Shown here piece after piece: positions 12,001 to 15,654 of a stretch of DNA of 17,758 nucleotides. Position numbers: made by a program. The stretch is from a virus (Duplodnaviria > Heunggongvirae > Uroviricota > Caudoviricetes), in IMG/VR virus record IMGVR_UViG_2657245634_000007, positions 1-17,758 of that record, one strand, 5' to 3'. Positions within the stretch are counted from its first letter, which is position 1; every line of letters starts with the position of its first letter.

Positions 12001-15000
12001 AAGCGGCTGCATACGCTACAGGCTGGAACGATTGCCGCGAAGCCATGCTTCAGTCCGGAAACTTTCGGGAAAATAAAGATTCGTCAACCAATAATTTTCG
12101 GAAAATCCCGGAAGCGTCAACCAGCTCTCCGGTAACTCCGGCTCTTCTGCCTGGTGGTTTCACCATTGAGGAGGCGAAGGAATTACATGAAGACCTGGTA
12201 CGCAGCCACATAAGCAAGGCCTTAAGTGGCGAAAAGATGAAAAAGAAAGATCGCGATGCTGATTTGCGCTGGATTCATGGCGTTATAGTTCAGGCAGCGT
12301 GGTTTGTAAAAGCATCACTGGAGCAGAATGCACTATCGGGCAACTCTCCGGTAACTCCGGATGGTTGGATAAGCTGTAGTGAGCGAATGCCGGACGACAG
12401 GCAGGAGGTGAATCAATGAGCTGGCCTGATGCAATCGTAACTCTGGGGGTGGTATTCGCAGCAGCGTTTGTTGTGTTCTCGATTTGTCGATGGGGATAAC
12501 CACATGTTCGCTTTGATTCAACGCGGTCAGATATACACGGACAGAGCCGGATACCCCGTGGTGATTACTCGCATCACTGAGCACTCAGTGTTCTTTCGAC
12601 GGATGGACGGACGATCCGGGCGGGTACGCATTGGTGAGTTAAACTGCCTGTTCGAACATATTGACCACCAGGAGTACCGCAAAATTCTCGCGGACACTGA
12701 GCAGGAAAAGCACCTGAAAAAATTACGAGCCATAAAAAGGAAGTAAAGAATGAATAAAGCATTTGAACGATGGGTCCACCAGCGTTACGGCAATCGCTAT
12801 GACCTGACGCGAGATGTTGACGGCTTCCACTGTCGTGAAGTTGTGAAGCGAATGTTTGAAGTGTGGTGCCACTGCCGTGGGCTGAGTGTTGTGTGAGGTA
12901 ATACATGGGCAATGTGATTCAACTGGCTCCCAATGAATGGGTTTGTGAAAGCGTTCTTATCGCAATTACCGGGCTCAAACCAGGCACAATTCTTCGGGCC
13001 CGGAAAGAATGCTGGATGGTTGGAAGAGAGTATATTCACGTATCACCAGACGGTAATCCAAAGCCTTCCAGTGAATGTATGTATAACAGAAAAGCAATAG
13101 ATGCCTGGGTCGCCTCAATGAAAAACAAACACCCCAGGTGATTTAATATCATGAAATATGTAAGCTCGTATCGCTCTTGGGCGTCTGGAGGTATCGATGG
13201 ATAAAGTCAAATATCCAACAGGCGTCGAAAACCACGGCGGCACATTACGCATCTGGTTTAATTTTAAAGGTAAACGTGTCAGGGAAAATCTTGGTGTCCC
13301 TGACACTGCCAAGAACAGGAAGATCGCCGGGGAACTGCGGACATCAGTATGTTTTGCCATCCGCACAGGAAGCTTTGATTATGCTGCACAGTTCCCTGAC
13401 TCCCCCAACCTTCAGGCTTTTGGGGTAAGTAAAAAAGAAATTACGGTGAAGGAACTTGAAGAAAAGTGGCTGGATCTGAAACGAATGGAAATCTCTGCAA
13501 ATGCATTCAATCGCTATGAATCCGTTGCAAGAACGATGGTTCCGAAAATTGGAGGCAGTAGACTGGTGTCATCGGTAACCAAAGAGGAATTGCTGTATAT
13601 CAGGAAAGATTTGCTTACCGGGTATCAGAATTCAACGAAAAACAAAGCAGCAGCAAAAGGACGGAGCGTCGTTACTGTAAATTATTACATGACGACAATC
13701 GCTGGAATGTTTCAGTTTGCTGCAGATCACGGTTACTTAGAAGCAAATCCCTTCCAGGGAATTAAGCCTCTTAAAAGAGCCAGGGCAGAGCCAGATCCGC
13801 TAACTCGTGACGAATTTATTCGCCTGATAGATGCTTGCCGACATCAGCAGACGAAAAACCTGTGGTCATTGGCTGTGTACACAGGAATGCGTCACGGTGA
13901 ACTGGTCTCCCTGGCCTGGGAAGATATCGATCTGAAGGCAGGAACAATTACCATCAGGCGCAATTATACGAAACTTGGTGAGTTCACTCTACCGAAAACT
14001 GAAGCAAGCACAAACAGGGTTGTGCACCTTATCCAGCCCGCTATCAGTGTCCTGAAAAATCAGGCTGAAATGACAAGACTGGGTAAGCAGTACAACATCA
14101 AGGTGCAACTACGTGAATATGGACGTTCAGTGAACCATGAATGTACTTTCGTGTTTAACCCTCAAGTGGTTAGAAAAAGCGAACAGGTAGGTTTTGTCTA
14201 CAAAGTCGATTCTGTAGGTGACTCATGGGAAACAGCCATTAAGCGTGCAGGGATCAGGCATCGAAAGGCATACCAGTCACGACACACTTATGCGTGCTGG
14301 TCATTATCTGCCGGAGCAAACCCAAGCTTCATTGCCAGCCAGATGGGCCATGCAAGTGCCCAGATGGTATTCAATGTATACGGAGCATGGATGACTGACA
14401 GCAATGCAGAACAGATCGCAATGCTGAATCAGAAGCTGACAGATTATGTCCCAATGATGCCCCATAGTCACCAAAGTGACACCAGAGGCTTATTAAAATC
14501 AGTAAGTTAATCCTTAATACCCGTCATGTTAACTGCGTGGAGGGCAACACCACGCTTTACGCCCTGCCGAAACCCGAGGTTGTCCTGCGCTGGCGTGAAC
14601 AGACCACAGATGACTTCCGCTTCTGTTTTAAGTTTCCGGCGACCATTTCGCATCAGGCAGCATTACGACATTGCGATGATTTAGTGACTGAATTTTTGAC
14701 CCGCATGTCACCGTTGGCTCCGCGCATTGGGCAATACTGGCTGCAACTGCCTGCCACATTCGGCCCACGGGAGCTGCCTGCGCTTTGGCATTTTCTCGAT
14801 TCTCTCCCTGGCGAATTTAATTATGGTGTGGAAGTCCGCCATCCACAGTTTTTCGCCAAAGGGGAAGAGGAACAAACGCTTAATCGCGGTTTACATCAGC
14901 GCGGCGTTAATCGGGTGATTTTAGACAGCCGCCCGGTTCATGCAGCACGTCCACACAGTGAAGCTATTCGCGACGCTCAACGAAAAAAACCTAAAGTTCC

Positions 15001-15654
15001 GGTACATGCTGTACTGACGGCGACAAATCCGCTGATCCGTTTTATCGGTAGTGATGATATGACGCAAAACCGGGAATTATTTCAGGTCTGGTTACAAAAA
15101 TTAGCGCAGTGGCATCAGACCACTACGCCTTATCTTTTTTTACATACGCCAGACATTGCCCAGGCCCCGGAACTGGTACATACCCTGTGGGAAGACTTAC
15201 GTAAAACGCTTCCAGAGATCGGAGCAGTTCCGGCTATTCCACAGCAATCTTCTCTTTTCTGAATTTGCCACCTATCATAGACAGGTGCCATCGGCCATTT
15301 TAAAGGGAGTTTGTATGGTAAGCGCGCTGTATGCCGTTTTAAGTGCGTTGTTATTAATGAAGTTCTCTTTTGATGTCGTTCGCCTGCGAATGCAGTACCG
15401 CGTTGCCTATGGTGACGGTGGTTTTAGCGAACTGCAAAGCGCTATTCGCATTCATGGTAACGCGGTGGAATATATTCCCATCGCGATTGTGCTGATGCTG
15501 TTTATGGAAATGAATGGCGCAGAAACCTGGATGGTGCATATTTGCGGCATCGTTTTGCTTGCTGGTCGTCTGATGCATTATTACGGTTTTCATCACCGTC
15601 TGTTCCGCTGGCGACGTTCCGGCATGAGCGCCACCTGGTGTGCGCTGTTGCTGA

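What the first reader, a model, noticed from the sequence alone, without database searches (positions are those of the whole stretch)
13197..15262. Prophage inserted in the 5' region of yecE, with integrase abutting a truncated yecE
The yecE frame opens only 7 codons after an in-frame stop lying in phage-derived sequence, and the product lacks about 30 N-terminal residues expected of a DUF72 protein. The integrase ends 27 bp upstream. yecE is an established insertion site for lambdoid prophages including Stx-converting phages in pathogenic E. coli, so the unseen late region could carry toxin or other cargo.
Basis: partly seen in the sequence, partly recalled or inferred. Interest (0 to 1): 0.45.

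Follow-up and report, generated by a model that had tools for sequence, protein, structure and literature searches.

The report
Prophage integrated into the yecE gene
A lambda-like prophage sits in the E. coli gene yecE at the attachment site already known from the Shiga-toxin phage phiP27, cutting off the gene's first 31 codons; this is a common, well-described arrangement, and no toxin gene is visible in the window.

Summary
Window 1-14528 is the early arm of a lambdoid prophage. It ends with an excisionase (12905-13141) and a tyrosine integrase (13197-14510). Identity to an uninterrupted yecE starts exactly at 14529. The 11-bp core TTAACTGCGTG (14529-14539) is the reverse complement of the attL/attR annotated in Stx2e phage phiP27, whose Int is 95.6% identical. 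The core covers YecE codons F29-V32. The first canonical start, GTG 14537, is native V32, so 31 of 272 residues are lost. Those residues align with the folded part of a solved DUF72 protein.

One detail is wrong. The upstream in-frame stop is TGA 14477-14479, which is 19 codons before the GTG, not 7.

The same junction occurs in 326 of 5426 complete E. coli genomes. Stx1a/2a/2d phages of O145:H28 (Int 76% identical) use the same site. The window holds no stx, and the four relatives whose full or late-region annotation I read have none. The late region of this prophage is outside the window.

New details here are inferred only: two candidate arm-type Int sites inside the int 3' end, and a probable 7-bp overlap TTAACTG. 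Interest is low.

The parts
1..14528 (.). Early (left) arm of a lambdoid prophage. It holds a partial replicative helicase, a DnaC-like loader (1236-2144 -), an O-like initiator (2146-3072 -), Rha/Ant-like regulators (3481-4335 -, 4444-5193 -) and a CI/LexA-like repressor (5881-6612 +). It also holds an HTH/CII-like protein (6723-7139 +), three ead/Ea22-like ORFs (9287-11174 +), DUF551, DUF4222, xis and int.
   Evidence: PHROG and Pfam hits. Annotation of near-identical relatives. The region has 59-62% coverage at 92-94% identity to phages PhiR49_2 and phiP27.
12905..13141 (+). Excisionase (Xis), 78 aa.
   Evidence: PF06806 'putative excisionase' at 9.6e-33, full length. It is annotated as excisionase in phiP27, PhiR49_2 and RefSeq relatives.
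13197..14510 (+). Tyrosine integrase (Int), 437 aa, with an N-terminal arm-binding domain and a C-terminal catalytic domain.
   Evidence: PF12167 at residues 7-70 and PF00589 at residues 202-395. It is 100% aa identical to PhiR49_2 Int, 95.6% to phiP27 Int and 76% to the IntR of O145:H28 yecE Stx phages. Signature residues read from the sequence and the alignment are R232, K259, Y359 (His in lambda), R362, H385 and Y395.
14446..14465 (+). Two candidate arm-type Int-binding sites, ATGTCCCAA (14446-14454) and ATGCCCCAT (14457-14465). They are 11 bp apart and lie inside the last codons of int, 64-83 bp from the core. This assignment is inferred.
   Evidence: They are the only matches to ATGYCCCAW in the 17.8-kb window. 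The same motif recurs on the distal arm of relative FAH. In the 42.6-kb phiP27 genome all 4 matches lie within 200 bp of the att ends. The motif was derived post hoc, and binding was not tested.
14519..14528 (+). Phage-derived imperfect copy of the attB left flank (ACCCGTCATG against host GCCCGCCACT). It is the probable left core-type Int site. It makes the hybrid frame read ..TRHV.. where the native protein reads ..ARHF...
   Evidence: Alignments. The role as an Int core site is inferred from the inverted symmetry in attB (GCCCGCCAC / GTGGAGGGC).
14529..14539 (+). att core TTAACTGCGTG, the 11 bp common to attB, attP and both junctions. The probable 7-bp overlap (strand-exchange) region is TTAACTG (14529-14535). 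The core corresponds to YecE codons F29(part)-N30-C31-V32.
   Evidence: It occurs once in the window. It is identical to the reverse complement of the phiP27 attL (1-11) and attR (42565-42575) features. It is shared by the int-side and yecD-side junctions of strain FAH and by the empty site. In the Stx2a phage of 12E129 the two junction copies differ at core position 9, so exchange must occur within TTAACTGC.
14537..15262 (+). Truncated yecE (DUF72), codons 32-272 of the native gene, 241 aa from the first canonical start. The frame stays open back to TGA 14477-14479 through phage DNA, with no ATG, GTG or TTG.
   Evidence: RefSeq relatives carry a 256-aa CDS starting at the position equal to window ATT 14492 and overlapping int.
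15315..17462 (+). Intact host genes downstream: yecN (15315-15710), cmoA (15751-16494) and cmoB (16491-17462).
   Evidence: Synteny with the empty locus L001 and RefSeq annotation. Pfam hits for cmoA and cmoB. yecN translation.

Best explanation
The window shows the int-proximal junction of a lambdoid prophage. In the convention of the phiP27 record this junction is attL. The prophage entered the E. coli chromosome by Int-mediated site-specific recombination between its attP and an attB inside yecE.

Shown:
- The phage/host boundary is at 14528/14529.
- The 11-bp identity core TTAACTGCGTG lies at YecE codons 29-32.
- The xis-int module reads toward the core, and int stops 18 bp before it.
- Int carries both an arm-binding and a catalytic tyrosine-recombinase domain.
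- Insertion splits yecE. Codons 1-32 stay with yecD at the far prophage end, which is outside the window and was seen only in relatives. Codons 32-272 lie here, downstream of int.

Inferred:
- Int bridges arm-type sites (candidates ATGYCCCAW, two of them in the int 3' end, and 2 exact plus about 3 degenerate copies on the distal arm) and imperfect inverted core-type sites that flank a 7-bp overlap TTAACTG, as in the lambda Int paradigm. Xis directs excision.
- yecE is inactivated. The lost 31 residues align with the start of the folded domain of a solved DUF72 protein, and no canonical start or good ribosome-binding site restores them.
- The insertion is evolutionarily young or reversible, because the retained 734 nt are identical to an uninterrupted allele.
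For: - Base-exact junction against the empty site.
- Core equals the phiP27 attL/attR.
- Int and Xis domains. Int identity to PhiR49_2 (100%), phiP27 (95.6%) and the IntR of yecE Stx phages (76%).
- Those IntR phages use the same position (PMC8112680).
- Complete about 47-52-kb prophages bounded by yecE fragments in FAH and in strain 100416.
- The junction is present in 326 of 5426 complete genomes.
- YecE residues 1-32 align to residues 13-45 of the solved DUF72 protein EF0366, 1VPY. The Pfam match loses profile positions 10-21.
- The retained part has 0 nt differences from an intact allele.
- Arm-site motif clustering.
Against: - The other prophage end and the late genes are not in the window, so the completeness of this particular prophage is unknown.
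- The arm-type and core-type site assignments and the 7-bp overlap come from sequence symmetry and repeats only. The motif was defined post hoc, and per-sequence counts are not significant against shuffles (2 observed against 0.84 expected in the window). Only their position is striking.
- The first His of the catalytic signature is Tyr (Y359). This is shared with phiP27 and with the IntR of phages reported in the cited papers to be inducible or transducing, so it does not argue against activity.
- RefSeq annotates the truncated gene as an ordinary 256-aa CDS.
Confidence: 0.95

Rival explanations
1. The phage reconstitutes a functional yecE. The in-frame phage-derived codons upstream of the core would supply a substitute N-terminus, as happens when phages integrate into tRNA genes or icd, so the gene would not be inactivated.
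For: - The yecE frame is open for 19 phage-derived codons upstream of GTG 14537.
- The phage side encodes ..TRHVNCVEG, which resembles native ..ARHFNCVEG.
- PGAP calls a 256-aa DUF72 CDS from the position of ATT 14492 in relatives.
Against: - There is no ATG, GTG or TTG in the extension. ATT is a very rare initiator.
- The only purine-rich stretch (AGAGG, 14484-14488) is 3 nt from ATT 14492.
- The extension (IKISKLILNT) has no similarity to the native MIYIGLPQWSHPKWVRLGITSLEEYA, which aligns with the first residues of the folded domain in 1VPY.
- The short similarity is confined to the 10 bp next to the core. It is explained by the need of attP to resemble attB at the Int core-binding site.
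Confidence: 0.03
2. The element is a defective, fixed prophage remnant rather than an excisable phage.
For: - Only the early arm is visible.
- Derivatives with deletions running from the prophage into yecE exist in other genomes. Examples are bet fused to yecE in 23CRST022 and an IS3-bounded remnant in EL361.
- Many E. coli lambdoid prophages are defective (general knowledge).
Against: - All early-region ORFs seen here are intact: int, xis, repressor and replication genes.
- Int is 100% identical to that of PhiR49_2, which is deposited as a complete phage genome.
- The closest relatives carry full head, tail and lysis modules.
- The retained yecE part shows no decay.
Confidence: 0.2
3. The prophage is Stx-converting, with stx located downstream of Q in the unseen late region.
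For: - The integration module is that of the Stx2e phage phiP27.
- yecE is used by Stx1a, Stx2a, Stx2d and Stx2e phages (PMC8112680, PMC8705337, PMC9751135).
- 40-59% of the window's phage part matches such phages at 87-92% identity.
Against: - There is no stx in the window (tblastn, best E-value 0.47).
- The four relatives inspected have no stx in the Q-tRNA-lysis interval. They are FAH and 100416, among the highest-coverage matches to the window; 15A, identical at the junction; and PhiR49_2, with the identical Int.
- Their hosts were a healthy-subject faecal isolate (FAH), a stool isolate (100416), a human isolate with no source recorded (15A) and ECOR13 (PhiR49_2).
Confidence: 0.07

Closest known systems
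Stx2e-converting phage phiP27 (GenBank AJ298298 / NC_003356), integrated in yecE
   Same: - The xis-int DNA is 94.9% identical and Int is 95.6% identical at the amino-acid level.
- The 11-bp att core is identical, and int stops at the same 18-bp distance from the core.
- The candidate arm-site motif sits in the same positions.
- About 59% of the window's phage part is shared at 92.5% identity.
   Different: - phiP27 carries stx2e and a sheath- and baseplate-type tail module.
- The closest complete relatives of this window (FAH, 100416) have lambda-like long-tail modules and no stx.
- The late region of the present prophage is unseen.
Escherichia phage PhiR49_2 (PV340570, from ECOR13)
   Same: Int is 100% identical at the amino-acid level and xis-int DNA is 99.8% identical. 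It gives the best phage match to the window's early region (62% coverage, 94.3% identity). It carries no stx.
   Different: The early region is mosaic, and about 38% of the window's phage part is not shared. I found no publication describing this phage.
IntR-type Stx1a/Stx2a/Stx2d phages at yecE in STEC O145:H28 and O80:H2 (LC5678xx; Nakamura et al. 2021, PMC8112680; PMC9751135)
   Same: They use the same attB position in yecE. Both junctions align on ...CCGTCAC(A/T)TTAACTGC(G/A)TG. They have the same int-xis orientation and related replication and early genes.
   Different: - Their Int is only 76% identical and lacks the last 14 residues.
- Their attP matches attB over 21 bp according to the record and the paper, whereas here only 11 bp are exact.
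- They carry stx.
Phage lambda Int/Xis/attP system
   Same: - Int is heterobivalent, with an arm-binding and a catalytic domain.
- xis lies upstream of int.
- int reads toward attP, with arm sites next to or overlapping its 3' end. In lambda the 'int 4' binding feature overlaps the int stop.
- The core is short, with a probable 7-bp overlap.
   Different: - The proteins are only 21% identical.
- The arm-binding domain belongs to a different family (PF12167).
- The target lies inside a protein-coding gene rather than in the gal-bio intergenic region.
- His308 of lambda is replaced by Tyr.

Membership tests
Lambda-type tyrosine integrase / attP integration module (phiP27-IntR group) | C-terminal tyrosine-recombinase catalytic domain | tested here: met
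   PF00589 at 66.6 bits against a cutoff of 27.1, residues 202-395. phrog_1 integrase at 2e-86.
Lambda-type tyrosine integrase / attP integration module (phiP27-IntR group) | Catalytic signature R-K-H-R-H/W-Y | tested here: inconclusive
   R232, K259, R362, H385 and Y395 are present. The first His position is Y359, also in phiP27 Int and IntR. MAFFT misaligned the box II region with lambda, so the box II residues were assigned by motif reading (YQSRHTYA / GHASAQMVFNVY). Activity was not assayed.
Lambda-type tyrosine integrase / attP integration module (phiP27-IntR group) | N-terminal arm-type DNA-binding domain | tested here: met
   PF12167 at 83.6 bits against a cutoff of 22, residues 7-70, over the full profile.
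Lambda-type tyrosine integrase / attP integration module (phiP27-IntR group) | Excisionase gene adjacent to int | tested here: met
   PF06806 at 112 bits, window 12905-13141, 55 bp upstream of int.
Lambda-type tyrosine integrase / attP integration module (phiP27-IntR group) | Core sequence identical to the family's known att core, located at the phage/host boundary | tested here: met
   TTAACTGCGTG at 14529-14539 is the reverse complement of the phiP27 attL/attR. Host identity starts at 14529.
Lambda-type tyrosine integrase / attP integration module (phiP27-IntR group) | Second junction with a duplicated core and the yecE 5' fragment at the other prophage end | not testable with these tools
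   It lies outside the window, and the 5' 100 nt of yecE are absent from the window. It is met in relatives FAH and 100416.
Lambda-type tyrosine integrase / attP integration module (phiP27-IntR group) | Arm-type Int-binding repeats on both attP arms | tested here: inconclusive
   Candidate ATGYCCCAW repeats cluster only near the att ends in the window, FAH and phiP27. The motif was defined post hoc and there are no binding data.
Lambda-type tyrosine integrase / attP integration module (phiP27-IntR group) | Excision and integration activity (inducibility) | not testable with these tools
   This requires induction followed by PCR for attP and attB.
Stx-converting phage | stxA/stxB genes downstream of Q | not testable with these tools
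   The Q-to-lysis region is outside the window. Inside the window tblastn with Stx2e A and B gives only chance hits (E-value at least 0.47). The four inspected relatives lack stx.
DUF72 (YecE) intact protein | Full-length domain including the N-terminal segment | tested here: not met
   31 of 272 residues are missing. The Pfam match starts at profile position 22 instead of 10. The lost residues align with residues 13-45 of the solved DUF72 protein 1VPY.

The most novel reading that the evidence does not exclude
By splitting the yecD-yecE-yecN-cmoA-cmoB gene row, the prophage may place the truncated yecE and the tRNA-modification genes cmoA and cmoB transcriptionally downstream of int. There are 26 nt between the int stop and the GTG, and no terminator-like site lies between them. 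Their expression, or that of a truncated or hybrid YecE, would then become coupled to the prophage state. None of this was tested. The simple promoter scan found no + strand promoter-like site between 14500 and 15800, but that scan is insensitive.
Probability: 0.08. Interest if true: 0.35.

Novelty: already known. Interest (0 to 1): 0.08.

Why it matters
It matters little beyond correct annotation. yecE occupancy by phiP27/IntR-type prophages is a textbook Stx-phage integration site, and this junction occurs in about 6% of complete E. coli genomes.

Practical value:
- The att core and junction are defined to the base, which is useful for attL/attR/attB PCR typing.
- RefSeq relatives annotate the truncated yecE as a normal 256-aa protein overlapping int. 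That is probably an annotation artefact.
- An occupied yecE site does not by itself imply a toxin phage. The inspected relatives are stx-negative.

Tried and rejected
1. Full-length yecE, or a junction elsewhere. Rejected by alignment to the empty site.
2. Rejected, because the translation shows 19 codons. The TAA of int is in another frame.
3. Hybrid yecE restored by phage codons. Considered because PGAP calls a 256-aa CDS. Rejected as unlikely, because there is no canonical start and the extension does not resemble the native N-terminus.
4. Apparent extra insertion points in yecE, suggested by hits that start further into the gene (H140, H30). Inspection showed deletion derivatives, not new att sites: bet fused to yecE, and an IS3-bounded remnant. 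The break at about 14922 in SCU-387 is a genuine second element with a large serine recombinase.
5. The promoter and terminator scan of 12700-15800 gave counts at or below the shuffle expectation and was uninformative.
6. The GC profile shows no sharp step at the junction and was uninformative.
7. phmmer of Int against PDB sequences gave only weak hits (XerA, 4.8e-7), and MAFFT misaligned the lambda box II region. The box II catalytic residues were therefore assigned by motif.
8. A literature search for PhiR49_2 found nothing.
9. The count of '2412 genomes with at least 80% coverage' from the first probe was discarded, because empty sites also reach 80%. It was replaced by a junction-centred 301-nt probe.
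Full report
**Observation**

The ORF list and the sequence show a 437-aa ORF at 13197-14510 (+). It is followed 26 nt later by a GTG-initiated 241-aa ORF at 14537-15262 (+). Pfam identifies the first ORF as a tyrosine integrase. It has an N-terminal arm DNA-binding domain (PF12167, 9.8e-24, residues 7-70) and a catalytic domain (PF00589, 3.1e-18, residues 202-395). Pfam identifies the second ORF as a DUF72 protein (PF01904, 1.1e-42), but the match covers profile positions 22-215 only. An excisionase (PF06806, 9.6e-33) lies at 12905-13141.

One detail is not. 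In the yecE frame the nearest upstream stop is TGA 14477-14479, which is 19 codons before the GTG, not 7. That stop lies in phage DNA, inside the 3' end of int. The int TAA (14508-14510) is in another frame.

**Where the junction is**

A megablast of 14300-15400 against 5426 complete E. coli genomes found empty sites whose match starts at window 14517 or 14529. I fetched one uninterrupted locus, aspS-yecD-yecE-yecN-cmoA-cmoB of strain 41 (L001). Alignment shows perfect identity from window 14529 onward. The 10 bases before that point are an imperfect copy of the host sequence (ACCCGTCATG against GCCCGCCACT). Further left there is no similarity.

Intact YecE is 272 aa. The retained 241 residues are 100% identical to it, and the 734 nt from 14529 to 15262 show 0 differences. 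GTG 14537 is native codon V32, so exactly 31 residues are lost. The 5' 100 nt of yecE occur nowhere else in the window.

**The att core**

No genome in the collection contains the whole window. The best complete relative is strain FAH, with 89% coverage at 97.8% identity. There, the same int-yecE junction is matched about 47 kb away by a second junction made of yecD, a 105-bp yecE 5' fragment and then phage DNA.

A four-way alignment gives these sequences:
- attB: ...TATGCCCGCCACTTTAACTGCGTGGAGGGC...
- yecD-side junction: ...CACTTTAACTGCGTGATACGGAATTT...
- int-side junction: ...CCCGTCATGTTAACTGCGTGGAGGGC...

The sequence common to all three is TTAACTGCGTG (window 14529-14539). It is exactly the reverse complement of the 11-bp attL (1-11) and attR (42565-42575) features of the Stx2e phage phiP27 record AJ298298. 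The core spans YecE codons F29 to V32.

**What the element is**

Everything left of 14529 is the early arm of a lambdoid prophage (PHROGs and Pfam; RefSeq annotation of relatives). It holds:
- a partial helicase, a DnaC-like loader and an O-like initiator;
- Rha/Ant-type regulators;
- a CI/LexA-type repressor and an HTH/CII-like protein;
- three ead/Ea22-like ORFs, DUF551 and DUF4222;
- xis and int.

The xis-int DNA is 99.8% identical to phage PhiR49_2 from ECOR13, and Int is 100% identical at the amino-acid level. The same DNA is 94.9% identical to phiP27, and Int is 95.6% identical. About 60% of the phage part of the window matches these two phages at 92-94% identity. Between 29% and 49% of it matches Stx1a/2a/2d phages of O145:H28.

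Those O145:H28 phages were deposited as yecE or attB-in-prophage occupants (Nakamura et al. 2021, PMC8112680). Their 'IntR' is 76% identical to the present Int. Both junctions annotated in LC567842 align on the same yecE position. The same attB therefore serves a whole clade of integrases. The literature lists yecE as an insertion site for Stx1a, Stx2a, Stx2d and Stx2e phages (PMC8112680, PMC8705337, PMC9751135). That phiP27 was originally shown to integrate in yecE (Recktenwald and Schmidt 2002) is from my memory. The GenBank record's att features are what I verified.

**How common it is**

A 301-nt probe centred on the junction (14380-14680) is covered to at least 80% in 326 of 5426 complete E. 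coli genomes. All other genomes match only the yecE half.

**How it most likely works**

Shown:
- Int has the two-domain architecture of lambda-type heterobivalent integrases.
- xis precedes int, and int reads toward the core and stops 18 bp before it.
- The core is an 11-bp identity between phage and host.

Inferred from sequence:
- *Core-type sites.* attB carries an imperfect inverted repeat, GCCCGCCAC and GTGGAGGGC (8 of 9 complementary), around TTTAACTGC. The attP flanks (CCCGTCA... and ...TGATACGG) resemble it. These are probably the core-type Int sites.
- *Overlap region.* In the Stx2a phage of strain 12E129 the two junction copies differ at core position 9 (G or A). Strand exchange must therefore occur within TTAACTGC. 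A 7-bp overlap TTAACTG (14529-14535) fits the lambda paradigm.
- *Arm-type sites.* I reconstructed attP from the window's int-side arm and FAH's distal arm. This reveals a repeated motif, ATGYCCCAW. Two copies lie 11 bp apart at 14446-14454 and 14457-14465, inside the last codons of int (..YVPMMPH..). Two exact and about three degenerate copies lie 127-190 bp into the distal arm.
- *Support for the motif.* These two copies are the only matches in the whole window. The only two matches in 10 kb of FAH lie next to the junction. All four matches in the 42.6-kb phiP27 genome lie within 200 bp of its ends. The motif was defined post hoc, and counts per sequence are not significant against shuffles. 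The positional clustering and the conservation between diverged arms are the evidence.
- *Comparison with lambda.* Lambda likewise has an Int-binding feature overlapping the int stop.
- *Catalytic residues.* Those read from the sequence are R232, K259, R362, H385 and Y395. Tyr (Y359) stands at the position of lambda His308, and this is shared by phiP27 Int and IntR. MAFFT misaligned this region with lambda, so I made the box II assignment by motif.

**Consequence for the host**

yecE is split. Residues 1-32 of YecE align with residues 13-45 of the solved DUF72 protein EF0366 (1VPY), so they belong to the folded domain and are not a dispensable extension. DUF72 structures are TIM-barrel-like; that statement is from my memory.

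The phage-derived in-frame extension (HQRLIKISKLILNTRHV) has no ATG, GTG or TTG. It resembles the native N-terminus only in the few codons next to the core (R-H-x-N-C-V), and the attP/attB similarity explains that resemblance. RefSeq relatives nevertheless carry a 256-aa 'DUF72 domain-containing protein' CDS, which starts at the position of ATT 14492 and overlaps int by 19 nt. I regard this as an annotation artefact.

The downstream genes yecN, cmoA and cmoB are intact. I could not test whether their expression is affected. The consensus promoter and terminator scan was uninformative.

**Cargo**

The window contains no stx (tblastn with Stx2e A and B, best E-value 0.47). The late region is outside the window. 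In the four relatives I inspected, the Q-tRNA-lysis interval where stx sits in phiP27 holds no toxin genes:
- FAH has a cytosine methyltransferase, a DUF262 protein and a HEPN-like nuclease there.
- Strain 100416 has an IraM-like gene and a DUF6645 gene.
- O111:H21 strain 15A has an OmpC-like porin and a SASA esterase.
- PhiR49_2 has a methylase only.

I put the chance that this prophage is toxigenic at roughly 7%.

**Verdict**

The arrangement is already known and common. Interest is low.

Noticed in passing
window 4090-4177 (-) and 4202-4278 (-): There are Rfam gathering-level hits to C4 antisense RNA (RF01695, 82 bits) and isrK (RF01394, 62 bits). Both lie in the 5' part or leader of the Rha/Ant-like ORF 3481-4335 (-). 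This suggests a P1/P7 immI-like or Gifsy isrK-type RNA control of an antirepressor in this prophage. The true start of that ORF may lie downstream of the RNAs.
   Followed up: no
window about 14922 (equivalent to L007:20353 in strain SCU-387): yecE has a second, unrelated insertion point. In SCU-387 and three similar genomes the same phiP27-type prophage occupies the codon 29-32 site. In addition, another element starts right after ...GGGTGATTTT, with a 507-aa large serine recombinase followed by tail genes. Both sites can therefore be occupied at once. The site is empty in the window.
   Followed up: partly
L002:20193-20963 and L003:3722-4492 (equivalent to window 14492-15262): RefSeq/PGAP annotates the truncated yecE as a complete 256-aa DUF72 protein (WP_044713004.1, WP_050575735.1). 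The start corresponds to an ATT codon and the CDS overlaps int by 19 nt. It is not flagged as a pseudogene.
   Followed up: partly
window 14529-15262: The retained yecE fragment has zero nucleotide differences over 734 nt from the uninterrupted allele of strain 41. The disrupted gene shows no decay, which is consistent with a recent or reversible insertion.
   Followed up: yes
L013 (23CRST022) and L014 (EL361): Other genomes carry degraded yecE prophages in which deletions run from inside the phage into yecE. In one, bet is fused to yecE at the equivalent of window about 14571. In the other, an IS3-bounded remnant with T3SS effector genes (espW, nleG) ends at the equivalent of about 15175.
   Followed up: partly
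L003:19309-22167 (strain FAH prophage, between Q and the tRNA genes): The closest complete relative carries a cytosine methyltransferase plus a DUF262 protein and a HEPN-like nuclease. This is probably an anti-phage defence cargo, sitting at the position where Stx phages carry other moron genes.
   Followed up: no
window 9287-11174 (+): Three consecutive ead/Ea22-like ORFs (240, 228 and 161 aa) all hit phrog_368. This is a tandem paralogous array in the b-region-like part of the prophage.
   Followed up: no
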